Source: a virus
IMG/VR virus record: IMGVR_UViG_3300020204_000008
Direction: 5' to 3' (one strand)
Length of the DNA: 64,000 bases
The notes under the pieces are model-generated. The model was not told where the DNA came from and made no database searches. It worked only from the letters and a program-made list of their open reading frames with translations. Each line of letters begins with the position of its first letter. The first letter of the stretch is position 1. The position numbers were made by a program, and so were the translations under genes. Positions 3,175-63,931 of this stretch are shown piece after piece.

Positions 3175-4932
3175 TTATGATTCTTTTAGTGTTACTTCGA
3201 TTCCGCTCATTAGGATCCTTTCTACTCTATTTATCGATTGTGCCAGCTGATTTAGATCGACGATAACTGGTTGATTTTGAGAAGAAGACTGTTGTTGGGA
3301 AACAGTATTTGGTGAAGGTTGAGTGGTGTTTGATGATTGTGAAATCGTCGTGTTTGATGCAGTATTAGTATTAGCAGTAGACGATGAACTTGTAGTCGAT
3401 GCAATGGGTTCAGTCTTAACCATGGTCGTTTCTTTGACCATTGATGGCTTAGTCTCTTCCATTTTTATCATGCTTGAATTTTCAGAATTGACTTTTGAAA
3501 AATTTTCTGACTTTTCGATATTTGAAGAATTCAAGTTATTAAAATAAGTTTCTTTATTTTCTCTACTTGTTTTTAAGCTAGTACCCGACCCTCTTCTCTC
3601 TCCAGGGATAGATTTATCTTTTTCTAGATTCAGTGAATTTTCACTGAATGATTTTTTGACTTCGGAAACTCTAGACTCAAAATTTGAAGTGGTGACTCCA
3701 AATAACTCTTTTGCCTGTTGTCCAAGCTCACCAGTCGAGGGCAGATTTAAAAAATCACCAGCCTTTGACACAATCTTTCCGACTTTTGATAAGAAACCTC
3801 CTCTTTTTCGACCCTCCTCTTTTTCACTAGTTGAATAATTAATCTCGCTTCTTTGATTATTCTCGTTTTTATTCTCGTTTATGTTAATTAAGCTTGTGGT
3901 AGAAGGATTATTATTAGTCGTACTAGTCGAAGATTCAGTAGTATTTACAGTGGACCCTCCTGACATATTGAAAAAGCTTCCAGCCGGTTCTTTGGTAGAT
4001 TCAATCGATTTGGTCGGCTTATTATTCTCAATGTTTATATTGATTGCTGGGTTCTGTTTTTCTTCAATCTTAGGTTTCTCCTCAGTTACTTCTACTTTTT
4101 TTGAAGTAAGTGCTCCTTCTGAACTAGTAACGTTAGTTGGTTCTTTAGTCGAAGCAGTCTTTTCATTAATCGTGCCTTCTGATTTAGCTTGTGTGCTTGA
4201 CTTATTTTCAGTAATCTCATTCTTGGGTTTTTCATTAATTGTTGATTCTCCTTGATTCTGTGTTTTTTCTTGAGTACTGACTTCGGTCTTGGGTTTTTCA
4301 TTAATCGGAGAACTTGAAGCAGGCTTAGGTTTTTCAGTAGTCGACACCTTCGCTGAAGATTTCTTTTTATCGTACAGCTCCTTAAATGCTGCCTTTACGA
4401 GTCCATCTGCACCATATGAGTTTAGCCTGATGTATAAATTATAGGGATTGATACCTAACAGGTCTACAAAAAGATCGTCTTCGATTGCAAAAACCTGATC
4501 AAACGTTATTTTCGGGTCAGCTTTTTGTTTTTTTAGGATCGCTGAATAAAACTTATCAAACTCCTCAGTTATTTCGGCTTCCGGATTGATGTTTTTTAAG
4601 TACTCTTCGATCTCGGCTTTTTTATTTAGCCCTGCCTGGCCTTCTTGTAACCTAGTCCATAACCCTGGGCTTATCTTTTCGGCCCCTTCCTTGATAGCAT
4701 TGAGCTTTTCAGGATCAAGAGTATTCGGATCATCCCCTATTTGACCATTAGGCGAGTATATTCCAAAAAGATCTGCAATCGCTAGCTGATAGCCTTTATA
4801 CTTCTTTTTGTTTTTGCTTGCTTCCTTCAGCTCATCCGTTGGATAAGGATGAGAGTTAGCATAGTCTAGCCTTTTTTGTATCTCCCTTTGGATTCCTAGA
4901 TTAGCTTCCCGTACGTATGCAGCAACACTCAA
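3175..4932 (-). CDS. Low-complexity virion protein, possibly tape-measure/gp29-like
   Basis: 585 aa with S/T/E/K/N-rich disordered tracts and repeated INEK; follows the gp26/gp51-like pair; ATAAATA at 4951-4957. Confidence 0.4.
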   Translation of the reverse strand: MSVAAYVREANLGIQREIQKRLDYANSHPYPTDELKEASKNKKKYKGYQLAIADLFGIYSPNGQIGDDPNTLDPEKLNAIKEGAEKISPGLWTRLQEGQAGLNKKAEIEEYLKNINPEAEITEEFDKFYSAILKKQKADPKITFDQVFAIEDDLFVDLLGINPYNLYIRLNSYGADGLVKAAFKELYDKKKSSAKVSTTEKPKPASSSPINEKPKTEVSTQEKTQNQGESTINEKPKNEITENKSSTQAKSEGTINEKTASTKEPTNVTSSEGALTSKKVEVTEEKPKIEEKQNPAININIENNKPTKSIESTKEPAGSFFNMSGGSTVNTTESSTSTTNNNPSTTSLININENKNENNQRSEINYSTSEKEEGRKRGGFLSKVGKIVSKAGDFLNLPSTGELGQQAKELFGVTTSNFESRVSEVKKSFSENSLNLEKDKSIPGERRGSGTSLKTSRENKETYFNNLNSSNIEKSENFSKVNSENSSMIKMEETKPSMVKETTMVKTEPIASTTSSSSTANTNTASNTTISQSSNTTQPSPNTVSQQQSSSQNQPVIVDLNQLAQSINRVERILMSGIEVTLKES

Positions 4933-20896: not shown

Positions 20897-21175
20897 CTAT
20901 TTCTTTTTATTTCTTTTTGCCTTTTTAGCTCTTTGCCAGAGGGACTTATCTGCCTTCTGAGTGGTCTTTCCTCCGGTGATAAATGAATTTACTCGTGCCA
21001 TCGCCCATTGCTGCTGGGTGACCCCAGGGCGATGTCCAGTCCTCCAAGCCGCCATTCCTTTGTTATATACGGTTCGAAGTATGCCTAACGGAATTCCGCT
21101 AGCTTTGGCTTTATTCTTAAGAGCGGTCTCCGACTCATTAATTCTGTTATTCAACCACTGATTAAAATTTAACAT
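20897..21175 (-). CDS. Basic small protein with capsid-targeting-like N-terminus (DUF5824-like)
   Basis: Likely start MLNFNQWLNNRINESE; GMAAWRTGHRPG...QWAMARVNSF is a conserved viral motif. Confidence 0.65.
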   Translation of the reverse strand: MLNFNQWLNNRINESETALKNKAKASGIPLGILRTVYNKGMAAWRTGHRPGVTQQQWAMARVNSFITGGKTTQKADKSLWQRAKKAKRNKKK

Positions 21176-21176
21176 C

Positions 21177-21866
21177 TTATTTCTCTTTTTTTCCAAGCTG
21201 TCTCTTGACCTCTTCTCTTACTTTCTCCATCTTTTTAGCATAAGCCGGATCGTCCTTACGATTAAAGACGATCTGCTGGTTAAGGCTTCCTGTGATCTTG
21301 CGCATGTCTCCTCCTCTGGTCCTGATCAACCATGCAGCAAGTGCCTTGATTCCCAAGCTCTTAAACTTTCCCTTAGCGTCTGGTGCATCCGAATCGTGCC
21401 AGTCTGGAGCACCCTTGGGTTTTTTACCCTCAGATACTTCGTCCTCGTTCTTAGCTTGCCAATCTGCAGATACTTTATCATCTAGGATAGGTCCGCCTGA
21501 TGCCCAAGTATAACAGGTTCTAGCAGAATGACACTTAAAGTGGTGCATCCAACAGTAACCCAAACGACCGTCGGGATCCGATACTTCGCCTGGCATGCAG
21601 GCTTCCATTCTTGGAGAGATATCGAAGGCCACACAATTACTGCAATTAGATTCCTTAGCTACTTCAGGTTCAGTATTCCATTTCTTAGCATATCTGATCC
21701 AGTATTCATCATCATTTAGGTTTAGCGGGCCATATTGAATATACTCCGCCTCAATTGCCTTATCTCTGTTTTGAGTGTTTAACTCTAGGTTTTGAGTCGC
21801 CATTGGACAAGAACCGTTCTCCTTTTCAAGAATTAAGTATTGTCGATAGTTTAATAGGTTTTTCAT
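21177..21866 (-). CDS. Cys/His-rich protein with capsid-targeting-like N-terminus
   Basis: MKNLLNYRQYLILE; CSNC...GYCWMHHFKC...RTC metal-binding pattern. Confidence 0.65.
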   Translation of the reverse strand: MKNLLNYRQYLILEKENGSCPMATQNLELNTQNRDKAIEAEYIQYGPLNLNDDEYWIRYAKKWNTEPEVAKESNCSNCVAFDISPRMEACMPGEVSDPDGRLGYCWMHHFKCHSARTCYTWASGGPILDDKVSADWQAKNEDEVSEGKKPKGAPDWHDSDAPDAKGKFKSLGIKALAAWLIRTRGGDMRKITGSLNQQIVFNRKDDPAYAKKMEKVREEVKRQLGKKEK

Positions 21867-22279
21867 TTTTTACCGAATTTTTTTTGATAGGCTAGCGTGT
21901 ATTTACTAGGTTTAGTTTTGTATCGTTTGCCCGATTTTGAATAGTCTGCTTTCCAGCCACCGTCCGGATAACTAGTATATGCACTAGCATCATTGTCACT
22001 CTTTTTAGCGTGTTTCTTGATCTCACTCTTCATCTCCCTAGAATCTCGAGTCAAGTATACGGGATTTACTTTTTCCTTTTTTCTCTCGTTCACGAATTGA
22101 GAATAGGTCAAGATCTTGGACTCATTCTTGGAGATCTCGATAGCTTGTAATTGGTCGACTGCCTTTTCTCGAGTAGGGTGAGTTCCAAGTAACTTACGCT
22201 TACCGTTCACCTTCTTTTTAGAATAGACTTTCCACACATTACCTGACTTTTCTATGGTCTCATTTATCGAATCCATCAC
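21863..22279 (-). CDS. Basic two-module protein with an internal capsid-targeting-like peptide
   Basis: LLGTHPTREKAVDQLQAIE domain, then KILTYSQFVNE. Confidence 0.6.
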   Translation of the reverse strand: MMDSINETIEKSGNVWKVYSKKKVNGKRKLLGTHPTREKAVDQLQAIEISKNESKILTYSQFVNERKKEKVNPVYLTRDSREMKSEIKKHAKKSDNDASAYTSYPDGGWKADYSKSGKRYKTKPSKYTLAYQKKFGKK

Positions 22280-22541
22280 CCTTTATTATTTTTACCTTTA
22301 ATGTTCCAGTTCCCCGAATCACCCTGTGCCACTGACCTCTCTCGATAAAAACTGTCGAGTTTAGGCTTTGCGGTAACTTATTCTCCAATTGAATCTTCCA
22401 ATCAGTAGACTCAATTGCTAGTATCGCTCTGTCCTCGTCGTCTCGATGCCAAGTAAACTCTGTGATAGTTGTATCTTGTGAAAATTCACGTATATAAGTA
22501 TCACTAGATATTTGAGTCTCTTCGAATAGTAATTGCTTCAT
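22260..22541 (-). CDS. Small cupin-like protein
   Basis: WHRDDEDR and FIERGQWHRVIRGTG cupin-type motifs. Confidence 0.6.
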   Translation of the reverse strand: MKQLLFEETQISSDTYIREFSQDTTITEFTWHRDDEDRAILAIESTDWKIQLENKLPQSLNSTVFIERGQWHRVIRGTGTLKVKIIKGDGFDK

Positions 22542-22558
22542 GCTATTTTATTTTTAAA

Positions 22559-23158
22559 TCACAGACCAGCAACAGCTGGAACGTTAGTTTCCATGTGACC
22601 CGTCTTTTTCTTTGCCTCACCTGCACTCTTCGCAATTGCATCTCTAGCGATCTTATTATCTGCACCAAAATCAGTATAATAATATTTTACTTTCGATGAA
22701 TTATTTTTAGTAAACTCTTGATAAAAAGAAGATACTTCAGAATTTCCCATCCAAATATCAACTAATAAGACTTTAGAAAAGTCAGAGGCTCTATTCTTTA
22801 ATAGGGACCTGCCTGGACGATATCCTCCAGAAAATAGATACAGGACCTTTGATGATGGTTTAATTCCATATTTTTCAAGTTGAGTGAGCACGTTTTTATA
22901 AGTTGACTCTCCATCTACTTGATGACTAGATGCAACGAATATGTGATACTTGTTTTTTAATTTATCCACATAGTCCCACATGTAGTCTCCGCTCGGTCTT
23001 CCACCAACGCGTATTCCGCCATAGACTATGAGTAGAGGAGCCGTCTTGTTTTTACAAAACAGGATTTTTCCACCGGAGATAACGGTTTTTTCAGTAGGCA
23101 TGGACTCAACTTGAGTCGCATCCTCAAATAATTGTTGATAAGTTAATAGATGCTTCAT
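22559..23158 (-). CDS. Alpha/beta-hydrolase-like protein with capsid-targeting-like N-terminus
   Basis: Likely start MKHLLTYQQLFE at 23158 (TAATG overlap); LIVYGG, YLFSGG elbow, LLVD, C-terminal GH. Confidence 0.5.
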   Translation of the reverse strand: MKHLLTYQQLFEDATQVESMPTEKTVISGGKILFCKNKTAPLLIVYGGIRVGGRPSGDYMWDYVDKLKNKYHIFVASSHQVDGESTYKNVLTQLEKYGIKPSSKVLYLFSGGYRPGRSLLKNRASDFSKVLLVDIWMGNSEVSSFYQEFTKNNSSKVKYYYTDFGADNKIARDAIAKSAGEAKKKTGHMETNVPAVAGL

Positions 23159-23730
23159 TACCAAAATCCAGGATAAGTTTTTCCGCCCCAAAGGTGAGCG
23201 TAGCGGTTGATGCGGCAAGCCCAATAGCCAGCCTTAGTCCGGTCCTTCTTCTCAGCACAGTTGTGTCGAGCAGCAAAGGACTTTCTGGCTTTTGGATTGG
23301 ACACTTTTGCTGTGAGTCCTCCATGCACATCACCAAACGCGATCTTAATTATTTTTTTTGTTTTAGGGTTTCTCACGTAAACGTGATACTTTTTAGTACC
23401 TCCTCTCATGGGATAGCCCAATCTAGGTGACTTTTCCTCATTAAGATCCAATACCTCAAGAGGAAGGTCTAATGGAACCGCGTGACCGTTAAATATTCCA
23501 GTAAGACCAAGATCAGTGGACTCAAAGAGTTGGCGATCGTGATCACCCAATATAAGTAGGCCAGCATAAAACTTTTGTCTAGCTTCAGTGAGTAGTTCAA
23601 GGTGAGCGTCTGAACCCGGTCGAAAAACTGATTCAGCAATGCTGATATCTCGATCAATATGATACTTTAAGCTCTCTGAGATAGCTGACTCACCAATAAA
23701 TTGAGTAAAACTTTTTATTCTAGCTTCCAT
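23158..23730 (-). CDS. Phage protein with capsid-targeting-like N-terminus and basic C-terminal domain (DUF6321-like)
   Basis: MEARIKSFTQFIGES; YVRNPK...FGD...ARKSFAARHNC...AGYWAC. Confidence 0.65.
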   Translation of the reverse strand: MEARIKSFTQFIGESAISESLKYHIDRDISIAESVFRPGSDAHLELLTEARQKFYAGLLILGDHDRQLFESTDLGLTGIFNGHAVPLDLPLEVLDLNEEKSPRLGYPMRGGTKKYHVYVRNPKTKKIIKIAFGDVHGGLTAKVSNPKARKSFAARHNCAEKKDRTKAGYWACRINRYAHLWGGKTYPGFW

Positions 23731-47444: not shown

Positions 47445-48392
47445 ATGAGACTAGGATATTGTTGTATAAATCTAAGCCTGAAGGATCAGGGAATTAGTAC
47501 TAATCGAGGTATGATACGTAAGACTTTTGATGAAAAAGGGCTTAACTATGTCAGCGAGCTCATCATACAGAACCTATCGGACTTGATCACAATACTTAAT
47601 TGGAATTGGTCAAATGGGATTTTTGTGTATCGTATGTCAAGCGATCTCTTTCCATGGATGAGCGAGTATCAACTTGAAGAACTTCCTAAGTATGACGTGA
47701 TCAGCAAGCTTGCAGCGGTCGTTGGCGAAACTGTCTCCATTGCAGGCATGCGGATCTCCTTTCATCCAGGACAGTTTGATGTGTTGGCTTCACCGAATCC
47801 AAACGTGGTCGACAAGACCATCTATGACTTGGATCAGCACGCTCGTATCATGGATCTTATGGGTTTACCTCAAGACCATCGAGCTCCGATCAATATTCAC
47901 GTCGGCGGTTCGTATGGTGACAAGGTGACTGCAATGGAACGTTTTTGTGAAAACTTCAAAAGCCTTGCCCCCTCTACTCAAGCTAGGTTAGTGGTCGAAA
48001 ACGACGATAAGGCTAGTCAGTTCTCAGTAAAAGACCTTTATTATGGCGTCTATCGAGTTGTGGGGTGCCCAATCACCTTCGATCACCTACACCACCGTTT
48101 CTGTACAGGCGATCTTACAGCAAGCGAGGCCGCTCATTTAGCCGCCTCTACATGGCAAGGCTTCGTTCCAGTACAACACTATTCAAGTTCCAAAGCCTTA
48201 TATGAGGACTCTACTGTGATCAATCGTTCCCATGCGGACTACGTATACGAGACTATTCCAGACTATGGCTTTGAAGTAGACGTCGAAGTTGAGGCTAAAG
48301 CCAAAGACTTAGCTGTGTTACGTTACCTTGCTGGAGAAGGAATAGTAGAGGAAGAACTTAAATTTCAATTTGAAGAAAATAAAAAAACCTAA
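47445..48392 (+). CDS. uvsE: UV DNA damage endonuclease (UvsE/UVDE)
   Basis: MRLGYCCIN, YRMSSDLFPW, SFHPGQF, INIHVGG, LVVENDDK, FDHLHH, HADY, EAKAKD. Confidence 0.95.
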   Translation: MRLGYCCINLSLKDQGISTNRGMIRKTFDEKGLNYVSELIIQNLSDLITILNWNWSNGIFVYRMSSDLFPWMSEYQLEELPKYDVISKLAAVVGETVSIAGMRISFHPGQFDVLASPNPNVVDKTIYDLDQHARIMDLMGLPQDHRAPINIHVGGSYGDKVTAMERFCENFKSLAPSTQARLVVENDDKASQFSVKDLYYGVYRVVGCPITFDHLHHRFCTGDLTASEAAHLAASTWQGFVPVQHYSSSKALYEDSTVINRSHADYVYETIPDYGFEVDVEVEAKAKDLAVLRYLAGEGIVEEELKFQFEENKKT

Positions 48393-51099: not shown

Positions 51100-53483
<2,384 letters not shown>

Positions 53484-53504
53484 GACTGACCAAGATTAAA
53501 AGTG

Positions 53505-53532
53505 AAAAGAGATAGGAAACTATCTCTTTTTT
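53505..53532 (+). terminator. Intrinsic terminator after groEL
   Basis: AAAAGAGATAG-GAAA-CTATCTCTTTT hairpin followed by a T tract. Confidence 0.85.
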
Positions 53533-53543
53533 ATTTTTATAAA

Positions 53544-53570
53544 AAACTTTATTCTTTAAATTTGTATAAA
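53544..53570 (+). promoter_or_regulatory. ECF-type promoter upstream of the S1-like gene
   Basis: AAAC-N16-GTATAAA, directly after the groEL terminator. Confidence 0.55.
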
Positions 53571-53588
53571 TTATAAATTAATCTAAAA

Positions 53589-54752
53589 ATGACAACACCA
53601 GATCCATTTAAAATTGTAAGTAAATACAATACTGAGGTAACTCTCACGCCAGATGACAAGAACTCTGGAGTAAAGATATATTGCCAAGAAGACTATGCTC
53701 AAGAGCTATATGATCGAATGAATAAACTTGAGAGCACCGGACAGTTGCACACAGCCAATAAGGATCTTGAAGAAAACGGAGTATATCGAGTAAAAGCAAA
53801 TCTAATCTCATTTGAGGATAAATTAATCCACGCAGAAGAAATTGGATCCAAGACTCCAGTAATAATTCCATTTAGAGAGTATTCAAAGGATCTTGAAGTT
53901 CTTTCTAGAGGCGAAGGCCGAGAGTTCTTAATCATGGTTTATAAATCAACTAAACACGGAGAAAATTATGGATCTGAAAGAAAAGCTATCTCCATCTCGT
54001 ATAAACAAGAATTGTTTGACCACCTTAAAGAAAACACTTGGTTTGATGTTACCATCACAAAACTAATAAAAGGAGGATATTTAGCAGTCTATAAAAAAGA
54101 GATTGAATGCTTTATACCTGGATCACATGCAGCAGCAAATGTCGTTCATAACTTTAATGACATGTTAAACAAGACTCTAACTGTCATGGTGGACAACTAC
54201 GATCAAACTAATGATCTATTCATACTTTCATACAAAAAATACGTAACTCAATCCATGCCAACCATGATTGAGAACCTAGAATTTAATCGAGAATATCAAG
54301 GAGTTCTTACTAATAAACCATACGATTTTGGAGTGTTTGTTGAGATCGACGGCTACTTTACTGGTCTAGTTCACCAGACCGAATTTGAAAATTACGATGT
54401 TATCAGAAAGACCCTAAAGACCGGTGATAAATTAAACGTGTTTGTAAAAGATATCACCACAAAAGGTGGTCAGTTTAGAGTAGTTCTTACCCTAAATTCT
54501 AAAAGCGTAAATGCTGAAAAACTTGCATGGCAAAAACTTAGAGAAAAGACAGAGACTAAAAGCTTTGCATACGATGTTGATCCTAAGAAAAATTCAATTT
54601 CAATCTATATCGATGGTGAAAACTATGAAGTCTCCCTAAAAAGAAAAGATCTTGAAAAGAACTTAAGTCGATTCCCATATGTTAAGGTTTCTAAAGTAGA
54701 TGTCTTAAATAAGAGCTTAAAGTTTGAATTTGTTGAGGACTCTGAAAATTAA
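53589..54752 (+). CDS. Ribosomal protein bS1-like multi-S1-domain RNA-binding protein
   Basis: S1 repeats KGGYLA...CFIPGSH and DFGVFVEIDGYFTGLVHQTE...LKTGDKLNVFVKDI. Confidence 0.8.
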   Translation: MTTPDPFKIVSKYNTEVTLTPDDKNSGVKIYCQEDYAQELYDRMNKLESTGQLHTANKDLEENGVYRVKANLISFEDKLIHAEEIGSKTPVIIPFREYSKDLEVLSRGEGREFLIMVYKSTKHGENYGSERKAISISYKQELFDHLKENTWFDVTITKLIKGGYLAVYKKEIECFIPGSHAAANVVHNFNDMLNKTLTVMVDNYDQTNDLFILSYKKYVTQSMPTMIENLEFNREYQGVLTNKPYDFGVFVEIDGYFTGLVHQTEFENYDVIRKTLKTGDKLNVFVKDITTKGGQFRVVLTLNSKSVNAEKLAWQKLREKTETKSFAYDVDPKKNSISIYIDGENYEVSLKRKDLEKNLSRFPYVKVSKVDVLNKSLKFEFVEDSEN

Positions 54753-55924: not shown

Positions 55925-56065
55925 ATGAAAGAATTAATCAATCGATTACACAAAGCCGGAACAAACGGTAATTCTAACTATATTATAGTCAGCCCTGAAT
56001 TAGCACTTAAAATAAAAGAAGAAAACAAAAAGAAAAATGGAAGAAAAAGAAATAAATCACGGTGA
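55925..56065 (+). CDS. Possible 46-aa microprotein between nrdB and nrdA
   Basis: Translated by hand: MKELINRLHKAGTNGNSNYIIVSPELALKIKEENKKKNGRKRNKSR. Confidence 0.4.
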   Translation: MKELINRLHKAGTNGNSNYIIVSPELALKIKEENKKKNGRKRNKSR

Positions 56066-57842
56066 GCCTCAAGGCTGGGAAATAGGAGTACACTTTCCAG
56101 TCTGGGCAAACACTGAAGTATACGTTAAAACAGTTTCTAGAGGATACTTACTAGAGGGAGAAACACCAAAGGATGCATACTGGAGAGTATCAACAGCCGT
56201 TGCTAAAAGACTTAGAAAACCCGAACTTGCCTCCAAGTTCTTTGATTATATGTGGAAAGGATGGTTAAACTTAGCCACCCCAGTATTTTCTAACACCGGC
56301 ACTGAAAGAGGTTTACCTATCTCCTGTTTTGGAATAGACGTCGCCGATTCAATAGCAGACATTGGAATTAAAAACCTTGAACTTATGCTCTTAGCTAAAC
56401 ACGGTGGAGGAGTAGGAATAGGCATCAATCAAGTTCGACCAGCCGGTTCTAAGATATCTCAAAACGGTACTTCAGATGGTGTCGTTCCCTTTTGTAAGAT
56501 CTATGATTCAGCAGTATTAGCTACTAATCAAGGGAACGTAAGAAGAGGTGCTGCCTCAGTCAATATTGATATTGAACATGGAGACTTTTGGGATTGGTTA
56601 GAGATTAGGGAACCTAAAGGGGATGTTAATCGTCAATGTTTAAACCTTCATCAATGCGTGATAGTATCAGACGATTTTATGCAAAGACTCGAACACGGCG
56701 ATAAGGAAGCTCGACGCAGATGGGCAGCAGTGTTGAGGAAACGCAAGGCCACTGGCGAGCCATATATCATGTATAAAGGAAACGTTAACCGTCAGAGCCC
56801 AGAAGCCTATAAAAAGAACGGGCTTAAGGTATACATGACCAATATCTGTAGCGAGATCACTCTACATACTGATGAGAACCACTCATTTGTTTGCTGTTTA
56901 TCTTCGCTAAACCTAGCAAAATACGATGAGTGGAAAGACACCGATCTGATCTATACTGCTACTTGGTTTCTGGATGGAGTCTTGGAAGAGTTTATCCAAC
57001 GTGCTAAATACATGAGAGGATTTGAAAACTCAGTAAGATCTGCAGAAAAAGGTAGAGCTCTAGGCTTAGGCGTCCTAGGTTGGCACACTTATCTACAAAA
57101 TAAGAATATCCCGTTTGATTCTCTACCTGCTCAGTTTGAGACCAGAAAGATCTTTTCTCAATTAAAGATTGAGAGCGAAAGAGCAAGTAGAGACATGGCT
57201 AGAGAATTTGGAGAGCCCCTATGGTGTGTTGGTACTGGAATGAGAAACACTCACTTAAGAGCCATCGCGCCCACCGTTTCTAACTCAAAGCTTTCAGGTA
57301 ATGTTTCAGCGGGTATCGAGCCTTGGGCAGCAAACGTCTTTACCGAACAGACTGCAAAAGGAACCTTTATTCGTAAGAATCCATCACTAGAAAAAGTTCT
57401 TGAAAAGATTGGACAAAACACTCGAGAAGTTTGGGATCAGATCTTAATTGACGGCGGTTCTGTTCAGGGACTAGATTTTATGGATAACTATCGAGTAAAA
57501 CTTGGAGAATCTAGCAACCCTATCACACTTAATAAGTTTTCTAAGCTTCCTGAAATTGAACAAAGTCAATATGTTCCTCTAAAGGAAGTATACTTAACAT
57601 TTAAGGAAATAAATCAACTTGAATTAGTTCGTCAAGCCGGGCTACGACAGCAATATATAGATCAAGCAGTTTCCTTAAACCTAGCATTTCCGACTGACGC
57701 TGAGCCCAAGTTTATTAATCAAGTTCACCTAGAAGCATATCAATCAGGCATCAAGACCCTTTATTATATGCGAACTGAATCTGTTCTTAGAGGAGATATT
57801 TCTGCCAGAGCAATGGCCGATTGTTTAAGCTGTGATGGGTAA
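56037..57842 (+). CDS. nrdA: Ribonucleotide reductase class Ia alpha subunit (short, no obvious ATP cone)
   Basis: ATPVFSN, PISCF, GGGVG, TNICSEI, VCCLSS, AIAPT, KTLYY, C-terminal CLSCDG. Confidence 0.95.
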   Translation: MEEKEINHGEPQGWEIGVHFPVWANTEVYVKTVSRGYLLEGETPKDAYWRVSTAVAKRLRKPELASKFFDYMWKGWLNLATPVFSNTGTERGLPISCFGIDVADSIADIGIKNLELMLLAKHGGGVGIGINQVRPAGSKISQNGTSDGVVPFCKIYDSAVLATNQGNVRRGAASVNIDIEHGDFWDWLEIREPKGDVNRQCLNLHQCVIVSDDFMQRLEHGDKEARRRWAAVLRKRKATGEPYIMYKGNVNRQSPEAYKKNGLKVYMTNICSEITLHTDENHSFVCCLSSLNLAKYDEWKDTDLIYTATWFLDGVLEEFIQRAKYMRGFENSVRSAEKGRALGLGVLGWHTYLQNKNIPFDSLPAQFETRKIFSQLKIESERASRDMAREFGEPLWCVGTGMRNTHLRAIAPTVSNSKLSGNVSAGIEPWAANVFTEQTAKGTFIRKNPSLEKVLEKIGQNTREVWDQILIDGGSVQGLDFMDNYRVKLGESSNPITLNKFSKLPEIEQSQYVPLKEVYLTFKEINQLELVRQAGLRQQYIDQAVSLNLAFPTDAEPKFINQVHLEAYQSGIKTLYYMRTESVLRGDISARAMADCLSCDG

Positions 57843-57867
57843 CCATCAATAAAAACATAATATGATG

Positions 57868-57975
57868 CAGCAAATAACTTTTACTGCTTTTTTTAAATAA
57901 ATAATAAAAAATCTAGTCTCATGCTTAAGTCATTCATTCAATTTATAAATGAGAATAAAAAAGATAATGAAGTTG
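57868..57975 (+). repeat. Copy 1 of ~110-bp direct repeat: terminator-like hairpin + ATAAATA promoter + leader + capsid-targeting codons
   Basis: Shares CTTTTACTGCTTTTTTT and ATAAATAATAAAAAATCTAGTCTCATGCTTAA with 58538-58645. Confidence 0.85.
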
Positions 57976-58535
57976 ACCCTTCTTTAAGTAAAAAATTTAA
58001 TTTCTATTCTATTCCTGGAGGTAAGGGTAACTATAGATCAGCACAAATTACTATGGATGATTACCCTGGAATAATTACAAAATATGGGATTAAAAACATT
58101 ATTAGAATGAATGGAGATGGACACGATTCTAAACACAGAGGAGCATATCCGGAAACTTCTAGAAGGGAGGAAGAAGAGATGTGTAAAAAATTAGGTTGTA
58201 CCTTTAATTTTATAAATGCCCATGAAGGATATTTATCTGGAAAAGGGTATGTGGGGTCATTGAAAAAAATATTACCTATTCTAAAGAAAGGAAATACATT
58301 GGTTCATTGTGCACATGGGGCGGATAGGACAGGGTATGTAGTTGCTTCCCACCTTCGGGATATTGGAGTGATGGTGGATAAAGATAAATTGTGGGAATAT
58401 ACAACTCAATATAATGGTTGGCAAAATATGGTAAATAAAGGAAATTTTTTCGGAACTGGATATGCTAAATATGCTGATGCTTTTTACCCTATACAAGAAT
58501 TAAAAAAGAAACATAAAATAATTAAAAAAATATAA
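57921..58535 (+). CDS. Protein tyrosine / dual-specificity phosphatase with capsid-targeting-like N-terminus
   Basis: HCAHGADRTG CX5R active site, YRSAQ motif; starts MLKSFIQFINE. Confidence 0.85.
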   Translation: MLKSFIQFINENKKDNEVDPSLSKKFNFYSIPGGKGNYRSAQITMDDYPGIITKYGIKNIIRMNGDGHDSKHRGAYPETSRREEEEMCKKLGCTFNFINAHEGYLSGKGYVGSLKKILPILKKGNTLVHCAHGADRTGYVVASHLRDIGVMVDKDKLWEYTTQYNGWQNMVNKGNFFGTGYAKYADAFYPIQELKKKHKIIKKI

Positions 58536-58537
58536 AA

Positions 58538-58645
58538 CAGTAAATACCTTTTACTGCTTTTTTTGTTTAGATAAATAATAAAAAATCTAGTCTCATGCTT
58601 AATTTCAATCAATTCATAAATGAGAGTAAAGACAATGAATTTGAA
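58538..58645 (+). repeat. Copy 2 of the direct repeat
   Basis: See 57868-57975. Confidence 0.85.
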
Positions 58646-58828
58646 TCTATCGAAAAAGGAGACACCATTCGCTGGATGGGAACTCGGTGTCAAGTTAAAA
58701 GAGCAACTGACGGTGTGATCACGATCGCTGGAAAAAACAAAGACATCCAAATAAATCGAGGAATGTGGAAGGAGAGAGGAGGAGTCATTATCGAAAAAAA
58801 GAAAGATTCTAACAAAGATGAAAAATAA
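58595..58828 (+). CDS. Small SH3-like protein with capsid-targeting-like N-terminus
   Basis: MLNFNQFINES; IEKGDTIRW. Confidence 0.65.
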   Translation: MLNFNQFINESKDNEFESIEKGDTIRWMGTRCQVKRATDGVITIAGKNKDIQINRGMWKERGGVIIEKKKDSNKDEK

Positions 58829-59330
58829 ACACATTAAAGGATATTCTGATTTTTTATTTGAACAGGACACGGCAGCCCCACCACCAATGCCTGGAGCTCC
58901 ACCGATGCCTGGAGCACCTGGAGCACCCGGTGCAAAACCAGTGGAATATAAATTCATATTTATGACTGGCCCAGAAGATGCAGGTACTTCTCGAAGAAAA
59001 TATCCAGACGGTAGTGTAGTTATCGAATATCCATGCTATTCTATTAAAAAAGATAAATTACAAGCTTGGATCAAGGAAAACATCATTTCTTCAGAAAAAA
59101 ATGAGTTGAACAAGCCCGAAATAGAGATTCGTCAGAAAAGCTTAGAGGACATAATTAAAGGAGATCGTACTAATATCTCAAGCGACGATCTTCCATTTAT
59201 TGAAAAGTTAAAAAACGCAGTGTCAGCCAACCTAATTGCTAAAAAATTATCAGACGTTACTGTTGTTTTCTCAAACAGTACCCCGACCACTGATGAGATT
59301 GAGGTGACTTTTATAAAACATAAGAGATAA
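58818..59330 (+). CDS. Hypothetical protein with capsid-targeting-like N-terminus and Pro-rich linker
   Basis: MKNKHIKGYSDFLFEQ; PPPMPGAPPMPGAPGAPGA. Confidence 0.7.
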   Translation: MKNKHIKGYSDFLFEQDTAAPPPMPGAPPMPGAPGAPGAKPVEYKFIFMTGPEDAGTSRRKYPDGSVVIEYPCYSIKKDKLQAWIKENIISSEKNELNKPEIEIRQKSLEDIIKGDRTNISSDDLPFIEKLKNAVSANLIAKKLSDVTVVFSNSTPTTDEIEVTFIKHKR

Positions 59331-60079
59331 TGCTTAAATCGTTCATTCAATTCATAAATGAGAGTGTGGAGAGCAAGGAAGAGTTTGTCAAGAGATTAGC
59401 TCAGACTCTAATCACCAAGATTCGTACCTCTTCAATGGAAGAGAGTACCGAATACTCTGTTTTTTCTGGAATGGAATTTATTGAACCATTTACGTTTGAC
59501 CTAATCATAAACGTTCGTCGAGACTCTTCACCCGACTTTGAAGAAGACAGCCACTTTGAGGATTTACCCTGGGAAAAGCTAAACTATGATAAGCTAGGCT
59601 ACAGCATAGATGCTAATACTCGAATGAGTCGTGATCAGTCAAGCGTGCCAAAAATCATATTCCATATCATCTTAAATCCTAGAAAGGAACCTCTTTTATA
59701 CAGCAAACTACAGTATCGATTAATCGATATCCTAGCGCATGAAACAAATCATCTAGATCAGTTAGGAATGAATCGTACTCCTTTTAATTCTCACGTAAGC
59801 AGTAAAAGTGAACGTGAAGGAGCTAAAAAAAGTTATCGATACTTTTTACTAATGGATGAAATAGAATCGATGATTGAAGGAATGTATCAAAGTTCAAAGG
59901 AACAGGGTTGTCCAATCGATCAAGTATTCGATGACTACCTTCTACCGTTTATTGAATCTGGATATATGAGCGAGTCAGAATACAAACACGTAATGGAAGC
60001 ATGGGTTACCCGAGCAGTAGAATTATATCCAGACGCTACTTTTTCAAGTAAAGTAGACGATATCGTTAACTCAATATAA
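59330..60079 (+). CDS. HExxH zinc-metallopeptidase-like protein with capsid-targeting-like N-terminus
   Basis: MLKSFIQFINES; LAHETNHLDQ and a downstream DEIE. Confidence 0.65.
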   Translation: MLKSFIQFINESVESKEEFVKRLAQTLITKIRTSSMEESTEYSVFSGMEFIEPFTFDLIINVRRDSSPDFEEDSHFEDLPWEKLNYDKLGYSIDANTRMSRDQSSVPKIIFHIILNPRKEPLLYSKLQYRLIDILAHETNHLDQLGMNRTPFNSHVSSKSEREGAKKSYRYFLLMDEIESMIEGMYQSSKEQGCPIDQVFDDYLLPFIESGYMSESEYKHVMEAWVTRAVELYPDATFSSKVDDIVNSI

Positions 60080-60127: not shown

Positions 60128-60397
60128 ATGAACGATTTTGAAAAATTAAAAGCGGAGATTGCATCAGCACAGTCTGCAATCTTTGAACCTATTGTTTCTC
60201 TTGTATCAGCCGCAGAAGACGATGCTGATAAGTATTATGGAAAAGGCGTAAAAAGCGCTGGAAACAGACTTAAAAAGAAAATGCAAGAGATCAGAAAAGC
60301 AATCAAGCATCCAGCAGTTAAGGCTGAGATGACCAAAATTCAAGAAGGAGCAAAAAATCTTCGTCAGACTTTGACCGACGAAATCTCTTCTAAGTAA
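60128..60397 (+). CDS. Histone H1-like (Hc1-type) nucleoid protein
   Basis: AEDDADKYYGKGVKSAGNRLKKKMQEIRK resembles the Hc1/Bacteroidota histone-H1-like motif KF..KGNKAAG.R.RK. Confidence 0.7.
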   Translation: MNDFEKLKAEIASAQSAIFEPIVSLVSAAEDDADKYYGKGVKSAGNRLKKKMQEIRKAIKHPAVKAEMTKIQEGAKNLRQTLTDEISSK

Positions 60398-63296: not shown

Positions 63297-63324
63297 AAAG
63301 AGGAGCTAACTGCTCCTCTTTTTT
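63297..63324. terminator. Bidirectional intrinsic terminator between convergent genes
   Basis: AAAGAGGAGC-TAACT-GCTCCTCTTT with flanking A and T tracts. Confidence 0.85.
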
Positions 63325-63931
63325 ATTTTATATCAGTTGATTCAATTAAAGTATAAGAAAATTTATTTCCGTGAATCTTAGAAGCCTTTCTACATATTGC
63401 CATAAAAGCATCAAAGTCTTTTACTCTCTTGAATACTTGACATCCTTCTGACCAATTTTCAACCCAAGTTGAATCTTGACCTGCCTTGTGAATATTAATA
63501 CCAAACATGCCAGTATCTGTCACAGTCTCTTCAAAAATAAGATCTCTATTACCGTCTCTCCATACTGTAACATTATCATTTCTTTGACAAAGGGCCGAAT
63601 ATTTACCTTGATGTAAATCTATTTTATAAACACTTCTATATTGTCCCGGTACTAATCTTGCCACCCCCTTTTTATTATGAAACTGTTGAACTCCTTTTTT
63701 ACCAGGATCACAAGTGGCCAGCCAACAATAAAATTGCCATACTCCTTTTTCATCCTTAAAAGATATTGTAAGACAATCATCAAAAACATTTGTAACTTTT
63801 TTATAGACTGCAGGTGAAGTATTTCTCACACCTACAATATTCACATCATAACTTTTGTTTGACGTGTCTTCGAACCATTTATAACCTTTAGATTTAACAG
63901 CCCTTTCTATTTGTTCTTTAGTGTAACACAT
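63323..63931 (-). CDS. YkuD / L,D-transpeptidase-like cell-wall enzyme (endolysin candidate)
   Basis: GINIHKAG...NWSEGCQV fits the H-x(n)-S-x-G-C catalytic motif. Confidence 0.55.
   Translation of the reverse strand: MCYTKEQIERAVKSKGYKWFEDTSNKSYDVNIVGVRNTSPAVYKKVTNVFDDCLTISFKDEKGVWQFYCWLATCDPGKKGVQQFHNKKGVARLVPGQYRSVYKIDLHQGKYSALCQRNDNVTVWRDGNRDLIFEETVTDTGMFGINIHKAGQDSTWVENWSEGCQVFKRVKDFDAFMAICRKASKIHGNKFSYTLIESTDIK

What the first reader, a model, noticed from the sequence alone, without database searches (positions are those of the whole stretch)
57868..58645. Duplicated terminator + late promoter + capsid-targeting cassette brackets a tyrosine phosphatase: apparent plug-in recruitment of virion cargo
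Seen: two ~110-bp direct repeats (57868-57975, 58538-58645) flank the CX5R phosphatase. Each has a hairpin and T tract, then the identical 32-mer ATAAATAATAAAAAATCTAGTCTCATGCTTAA, then similar first codons (MLKSFIQFINENKKDNE vs MLNFNQFINESKDNE). The gene at 59330 starts with the same MLKSFIQFINE. By eye the phosphatase body is poorer in CG dinucleotides than its neighbours. Inference: a foreign enzyme domain was captured behind a copy of a resident expression and packaging module, which would make it late-expressed, capsid-packaged and injected. This would be a modular cargo-acquisition route. The phosphatase could act on host phosphotyrosine signalling or phosphorylated defence metabolites.
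Basis: partly seen in the sequence, partly recalled or inferred. Interest (0 to 1): 0.85.

Follow-up and report, generated by a model that had tools for sequence, protein, structure and literature searches.

The report
Phage phosphatase inserted behind copied promoter-tag
A large freshwater T4-like phage recently picked up a phosphatase domain from another phage and placed it behind a duplicate of its own late promoter and probable 'load into the head' tag, a very clean example of a gene-shuffling route already described for T4 relatives, carrying an enzyme family whose target is unknown but is probably in the host cell envelope.

Summary
The repeats are real. A 124-bp element present once after nrdA in the closest relatives (empty site in at least 8 distinct phages) occurs twice here. 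It holds a hairpin, a T-tract, a late-type promoter and about 17 leader codons. Between the copies lies a 538-bp phosphatase body, 86.6% identical without gaps to a gene of another phage lineage and CpG-poor (5 vs 15 expected). This is a recent gain. The donor is viral; no close cellular homolog was found. Another relative has an independent insert with a duplicated promoter in the same slot. The leader matches the key positions of T4's capsid-targeting sequence, and the clade encodes gp23, an S77 protease and a gp55-like sigma; packaging and injection remain untested. 'Tyrosine phosphatase' holds only at fold level (atypical dual-specificity fold, CxxGxDR loop). Homologs swap this tag for membrane anchors and fuse to peptidoglycan-binding and muramidase domains, which favours an envelope substrate over pTyr signalling. 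The route matches T4 PeSL cassettes and internal-protein loci; this scan noted similar cassettes on other DNA several times.

The parts
56037..57842 (+). nrdA (ribonucleotide reductase large subunit), conserved upstream anchor
   Evidence: Pfam PF02867/PF00317; 94% identical in empty-site relatives L089-L091
57853..57976 (+). copy 1 of the duplicated resident element (spacer, hairpin, T-tract, late promoter, start and about 18 leader codons); left edge approximate
   Evidence: L089 5704-5827 aligns to both window copies
57867..57894 (+). hairpin + T-tract, copy 1 (one C-A mismatch; weakened terminator-like element)
57896..57903 (+). late-type promoter core AATAAATA
   Evidence: same core precedes baseplate and neck genes in the window and G001
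57921..57953 (+). CTS-like leader MLKSFIQFINE; codons 1-11 match gene 59330 better than gene 58595
   Evidence: T4 CTS positions from PMC9026906 and bioRxiv 10.1101/2021.01.19.427310
57921..58535 (+). 204-aa cysteine-dependent phosphatase gene (atypical dual-specificity fold); catalytic loop at 58305-58331; last 9 codons and stop supplied by resident spacer DNA
57970..58507 (+). acquired body: both junctions fall inside the donor-type reading frame
   Evidence: 86.6% nt identity over 538 nt, no gaps, to L087; CpG and GC3 depleted
58523..58646 (+). copy 2 of the element (closer to the ancestral single copy); hairpin 58538-58556, promoter core 58570-58577
   Evidence: 95/109 columns match the L089 empty site vs 87/112 for copy 1
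58595..58828 (+). resident 77-aa gene with leader MLNFNQFINE; itself accessory (absent in more distant relatives)
58818..59330 (+). conserved 170-aa Pro-rich gene with a CTS-like leader; downstream anchor
59330..60079 (+). conserved 249-aa gene (HExxH-type motif by eye) with the same 11-residue leader; probable source of copy 1's leader codons
45914..46312 (-). gp55-like late sigma factor that would read the promoter
   Evidence: PHROG 234, E 2e-19

Best explanation
The window belongs to a large T4-like freshwater myophage. After nrdA it has a short late operon of tagged proteins opened by a hairpin/T-tract + late promoter + leader. SHOWN: after this lineage split from its nearest sampled relatives, a 538-bp phosphatase-coding fragment from a phage of another lineage was inserted here. 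Its 5' junction lies near codon 17 of the resident 77-aa gene and its 3' junction in the A-rich spacer before the hairpin, so about 124 bp are duplicated and the enzyme received the resident promoter, start, leader and a new stop. Codons 1-11 were probably then converted from the neighbouring 249-aa gene. INFERRED: recombination at short homologies during replication, or integration of a PeSL-type circle, made the insertion. The gene is transcribed late by the gp55-like sigma; the leader loads the protein into the prohead as T4's CTS does; the S77 protease cuts after I-N-E; the basic 22-kDa enzyme is ejected on infection. INFERRED, weakest: it removes phosphate from a non-protein envelope substrate (phosphorylated lipid or cell-wall polymer), using the P-loop Asp135 as general acid.
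For: Empty site in L001/L093/L095, L003, L004, L005, L014, L089-L091, L092, L096; no phosphatase in the 176-kb collinear relative G001. L087 matches exactly the interval between the repeats. Synonymous-only codon differences: 35/178 for phosphatase vs L087 against 245/602 for nrdA vs L089. Two substitutions shared by both copies and absent from all four aligned relatives. Independent cargo in the same slot: L094 (240 aa, duplicated promoter), L006 and L012 (MORN-like repeat protein). Leader F5/F8/I9/E11 maps on T4 CTS Y4/F7/I8/E10, where 4 and 7 drive targeting and 8 and 10 processing (PMC9026906; sequence). G001 encodes gp23 and an S77 protease; its gp23 has I/L-x-E sites near the N-terminus. 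At least 15 G001 genes carry the leader, 9 directly behind the promoter (Fisher p = 4e-4; internal control rate 0.9%). Mature pI 9.5. Among 93 longer homologs: PG_binding_1 in 19, GDSL 8, glucosaminidase 4, tail lysozyme 3, SLT 2, lysozyme 2; about two-thirds of 96 near-length homologs have an N-terminal membrane anchor and sit beside GDPD and GDSL genes.
Against: No transcript, virion proteome or enzyme assay exists; the phage is uncultured and has no close isolate. The leader pattern was defined after seeing the sequences, so its p-value is optimistic. The head genes were seen in the relative, not in this window. L087 is a 912-bp contig, so the donor lineage is identified only by its different promoter and neighbours. 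Envelope fusions may reflect what tagged cargo genes in these phages generally carry; I ran no baseline for that. Both hairpins are weakened.
Confidence: 0.62

Rival explanations
1. Same insertion and packaging, but the enzyme acts in the cytoplasm after injection, on phosphoproteins or phosphorylated small molecules of defence or signalling, or on RNA 5' ends.
For: Tagged, injected T4 proteins counter cytoplasmic defences (PMC3012670). Top structural matches include Siw14 (inositol pyrophosphates), VHZ, SsoPTP and TpbA; best sequence matches in the PDB are baculovirus RNA 5'-phosphatase P-loops, E 1e-4 over 21 residues.
Against: Family-wide membrane anchors and cell-wall domain fusions. No conserved Asp in the loop that carries the general acid in classical PTPs/DSPs (residues 96-112). 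All structural matches are about 10-20% identical and tied within about 1 Z.
Confidence: 0.3
2. The leader is only a by-product of capturing a promoter and translation start; the protein is a late cytoplasmic or lysis-stage product and is not packaged.
For: Copying the first codons is expected from any crossover inside the resident gene; no packaging data.
Against: The leader kept frame and all four CTS key positions, changed towards the neighbour's version, and unrelated lineages independently give this enzyme their own local leader (L165, L175, L193, L194, L206, L216, L225).
Confidence: 0.2
3. The two-copy state is ancestral and relatives lost the gene by recombination between the repeats; or the repeat is an assembly artefact.
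For: Direct repeats do favour deletion (PeSL mini-circles, PMC2839356).
Against: Needs many independent losses; the body is closer to a foreign phage than the backbone is to its sister; derived bases are shared by both copies; three separate assemblies agree.
Confidence: 0.03

Closest known systems
T4/T-even internal proteins IPI-IPIII and their capsid-targeting sequence (Mullaney and Black 1996; Repoila et al. 1994, as cited in PMC9026906, PMC3012670)
   Same: About 10-residue N-terminal tag with aromatic 4 and 7, hydrophobic 8, Glu 10; unrelated basic bodies behind a shared tag; variable between related phages; T4-type head genes. The review already proposes the CTS as an evolutionary route to load new proteins.
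   Different: Distant uncultured clade; promoter core RATAAATA; at least 15 tagged genes; slot after nrdA; cargo is an enzyme domain with a traceable phage donor; packaging not shown.
PeSL/PmSL promoter-terminator cassettes of RB49/phi1, PST/T4 and nt-1/KVP40 (PMC2839356, PMC4122927)
   Same: Stem-loop upstream of a promoter and start codon; copies flank inserted or exchanged ORFs; relatives show empty and alternative states.
   Different: Promoter is late-type, not early or middle; the copied unit runs about 17 codons into the gene and so adds a peptide tag; only two copies of the full element in the window; mini-circles not tested.
Atypical dual-specificity cysteine phosphatases: Siw14/PFA-DSP, PTPMT1, VHZ, P. 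aeruginosa TpbA, MptpB (PF13350), baculovirus BVP
   Same: Class I cysteine-phosphatase fold (Z 12-13.6, rmsd about 3 A, about 140 aligned), intact CX5R; CxxGxDR loop as in MptpB-type lipid phosphatases (own knowledge); BVP is virion-associated (own knowledge).
   Different: 10-21% identity to all; a virus-restricted family (286 representatives at E<=0.001) with swappable N-termini; no close cellular member; no match in 50,697 phage records; I found no paper on it.

Membership tests
T4-type internal protein with CTS | N-terminal tag with aromatic 4 and 7, hydrophobic 8, Glu 10 | tested here: met
   F5/F8/I9/E11 (offset +1); exact register in gene 58595
T4-type internal protein with CTS | T4-type head module (gp23, gp21-like S77 protease) | tested here: met
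   in collinear relative G001; not inside this window
T4-type internal protein with CTS | late transcription | tested here: inconclusive
   promoter core shared with structural genes and gp55-like sigma present; no RNA data
T4-type internal protein with CTS | small basic mature protein | tested here: met
   21.9 kDa, pI 9.5
T4-type internal protein with CTS | packaged, cleaved by the prohead protease, injected | not testable with these tools
   needs virions or a heterologous packaging assay
PeSL cassette | stem-loop terminator directly upstream of promoter and start | tested here: met
   (weakened stems)
PeSL cassette | early sigma70-like (or middle) promoter | tested here: not met
   core is the late-type RATAAATA; works like a PeSL but is not one by definition
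PeSL cassette | copies flank an indel between close relatives | tested here: met
PeSL cassette | excised mini-circles | not testable with these tools
Class I cysteine-based phosphatase (DSP-like, PF13350) | intact HCX5R(T/S) loop and fold | tested here: met
   invariant in 86 aligned homologs; model pLDDT 93; fold matches; PF13350 above cut-off
Classical protein tyrosine phosphatase | general-acid Asp in the WPD/D loop | tested here: not met
   no conserved Asp at residues 96-112; invariant Asp135 lies in the P-loop; loop assignment read from predicted secondary structure
Classical protein tyrosine phosphatase | phosphotyrosine specificity | not testable with these tools
   needs assay

The most novel reading that the evidence does not exclude
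An undescribed, virus-restricted cysteine phosphatase family is a virion enzyme that strips phosphate from the host envelope during entry, and it spreads between unrelated phage lineages by exchanging its address tag (membrane anchor, several lineage-specific head tags, cell-wall-binding fusions); this locus is a freshly caught re-addressing event.
Probability: 0.3. Interest if true: 0.68.

Novelty: new variant of a known kind. Interest (0 to 1): 0.42.

Why it matters
The locus gives what T4 internal-protein studies lacked: empty site, filled site, donor-like sequence and both junctions for one event in which a domain gains a promoter and a probable packaging tag at once. It makes the proposal that the CTS is a route for recruiting new head cargo directly testable. 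The enzyme family is uncharacterised; if it acts on envelope phosphates it would be a new kind of phage entry enzyme. The shuffling route itself is known.

Tried and rejected
No whole genome is held for the window. Cellular donor rejected: genome contigs gave one 57% hit on a 2.6-kb MAG contig, probably viral, and otherwise only partial matches of 24-41% or motif-only hits. No hit in isolated phage records. PHROGs gave nothing for the phosphatase or its three neighbours. Repoila 1994 and Rifat 2008 are not held, so they are cited second-hand. The homolog tree is the quick IQ-TREE version and my TM/tag labels are heuristic with some wrong calls: it needs 14 changes of the membrane-anchor state (6 forced by starred branches) and cannot give direction. 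The local-leader test was positive for only 9 of 36 soluble and 4 of 8 anchored homologs within 12-kb loci. The nature of the anchored-form viruses was not resolved. No complex prediction was run: the CTS partner is unknown even in T4. Host not determined.

Full report
Observation. The two repeats exist as described. The identical 32-mer (57897 and 58571) is the only direct repeat of 20 nt or more in the window, and the longer segments match at 93 of 114 columns. Each copy has a hairpin, a T-run, the core RATAAATA and the first codons of a gene. The 204-aa ORF between them has an intact HCAHGADRT loop and passes the Pfam PF13350 cut-off. Its body has 5 CpG where resident codon usage predicts 15.2, and low GC3. 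Three separately assembled contigs carry the same arrangement.

Context. The window is part of a large T4-like myophage: baseplate wedge, head-closure, gp32-like SSB and a gp55-like late sigma are present, with GroEL/GroES, an S1-domain protein and nrdAB. It is collinear along its length with IMG/VR contig G001 at mostly 72-84% nucleotide identity. G001 encodes gp23 and an S77 prohead protease and no phosphatase homolog was found in it, though it is about 70% complete.

Empty and alternative sites. In L089-L091 (nrdA 94% identical) and in L001, L003, L004, L005, L014, L092 and L096, nrdA is followed by one copy of the element and then directly by the 77-aa gene. BLASTN shows L089 5704-5827 aligning to both window copies, a 124-bp duplication. 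More distant relatives lack even the 77-aa gene (L008, L011, L053, L064, L070, L073). L006 and L012 have a MORN-like repeat protein with a different tag in the slot, and L094 has an unrelated 240-aa gene with its own tag and a duplicated promoter. The slot is a hot spot.

Origin and direction. The nearest homolog (P0002, locus L087) aligns to window 57970-58507 at 86.6% with no gaps and stops at both repeats. It uses a different promoter core (GATATATA, absent from the window and G001) and its own tag. Synonymous-only differences are 35 of 178 codons, against 245 of 602 between the window's nrdA and its nearest relative, so the body arrived after that split. Both window copies share two substitutions absent from four relatives. 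Both junctions lie within the donor-type frame: the resident supplied start, leader, the last nine codons and the stop. Codons 1-11 differ from gene 59330 at only three silent positions, while every relative's 77-aa gene has the shorter form, which suggests conversion from the neighbour (inference). No close cellular homolog was found.

The leader. T4's CTS is MKTYQEFIAE; residues 4 and 7 drive targeting and 8 and 10 processing (PMC9026906), and gp21 cuts at sites such as ITE and LTE (PMC5694885). The leader here keeps all four positions. At least 15 G001 genes carry such a leader, 9 directly behind the late core (p = 4e-4; 0.9% at internal control positions). The mature protein would be 22 kDa with pI 9.5. 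Packaging is therefore likely but not shown.

The enzyme. The model is confident (pLDDT 93). Foldseek ranks TpbA and PFA-DSP first; VIA-align gives Siw14 Z 13.6, DUF442 13.2, PTPMT1 13.0, VHZ 13.0 and TpbA 12.2, effectively tied. The usual general-acid loop has no conserved Asp, while Asp135 in the P-loop is invariant, the arrangement of MptpB-type lipid phosphatases (own knowledge). About two-thirds of 96 near-length homologs begin with a membrane anchor and most others with lineage-specific tags ending in x-E. On a quick tree the anchor state changes 6 to 14 times, and the window's protein nests among anchored forms. Longer homologs fuse to PG_binding_1 (19 of 93), GDSL (8) and several muramidases; anchored ones sit beside GDPD and GDSL genes. 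This favours an envelope substrate (about 45%) over cytoplasmic phosphoproteins, metabolites or RNA (about 35%), with the rest undecided. These odds are my judgement.

Comparison and verdict. Terminator-promoter cassettes that bracket inserted ORFs are published as PeSLs (PMC2839356, PMC4122927), and variable cargo behind a shared CTS is the T-even internal-protein pattern. This case differs in using a late promoter and in copying the tag with it. Earlier notes of this scan describe similar cassettes in other phages and the same enzyme behind a PG-binding domain; I treated them as leads only. The finding is real and unusually well resolved, but a new variant of a known kind; the uncharacterised enzyme family is the more original part.

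Noticed in passing
window 63323-63931 (-): 202-aa gene (PHROG 3000, weak endolysin match) behind a late-type core 41 nt upstream of its start; also CpG-poor (o/e 0.41), absent after groES in G001 but present in L004, L093, L096, and with homologs next to anchored phosphatases in L081, L088, L116. A second mobile envelope gene.
   Followed up: partly
L094 16-297 and 614-1376: A class II (B12-dependent) ribonucleotide reductase replaces nrdA upstream of the same element in a phage otherwise close to L014, followed by an unrelated 240-aa cargo with a duplicated promoter.
   Followed up: partly
L006 2901-3407; L012 from about 9846: MORN-like repeat proteins with an MKHIK-type tag occupy the slot instead of the 77-aa gene.
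   Followed up: partly
L051 downstream of nrdA (after 5644): A more distant phage with the GATATATA promoter has a run of four to five MKHIK-tagged small genes right after nrdA, so the post-nrdA position is a cargo slot in other clades too.
   Followed up: no
window 20897-23730 (-): Cluster of five to six small genes with CTS-like leaders between structural genes.
   Followed up: no
window 51858-54752, 60128-60397, 47445-48392: Phage-encoded GroEL, an S1-domain protein, a histone H1-like Hc1 protein and UvsE.
   Followed up: no
L088 and L116: Viruses of unresolved type in which a third or more of the genes carry similar N- or C-terminal membrane anchors, with phosphatase, GDPD and GDSL enzymes side by side; anchors are shared between neighbours like a tag.
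   Followed up: partly
window 4221-4306: Short direct repeat (at least 19 nt, spacing 66) in a non-coding-looking stretch; also a 17-nt match between 106 and 47248.
   Followed up: no
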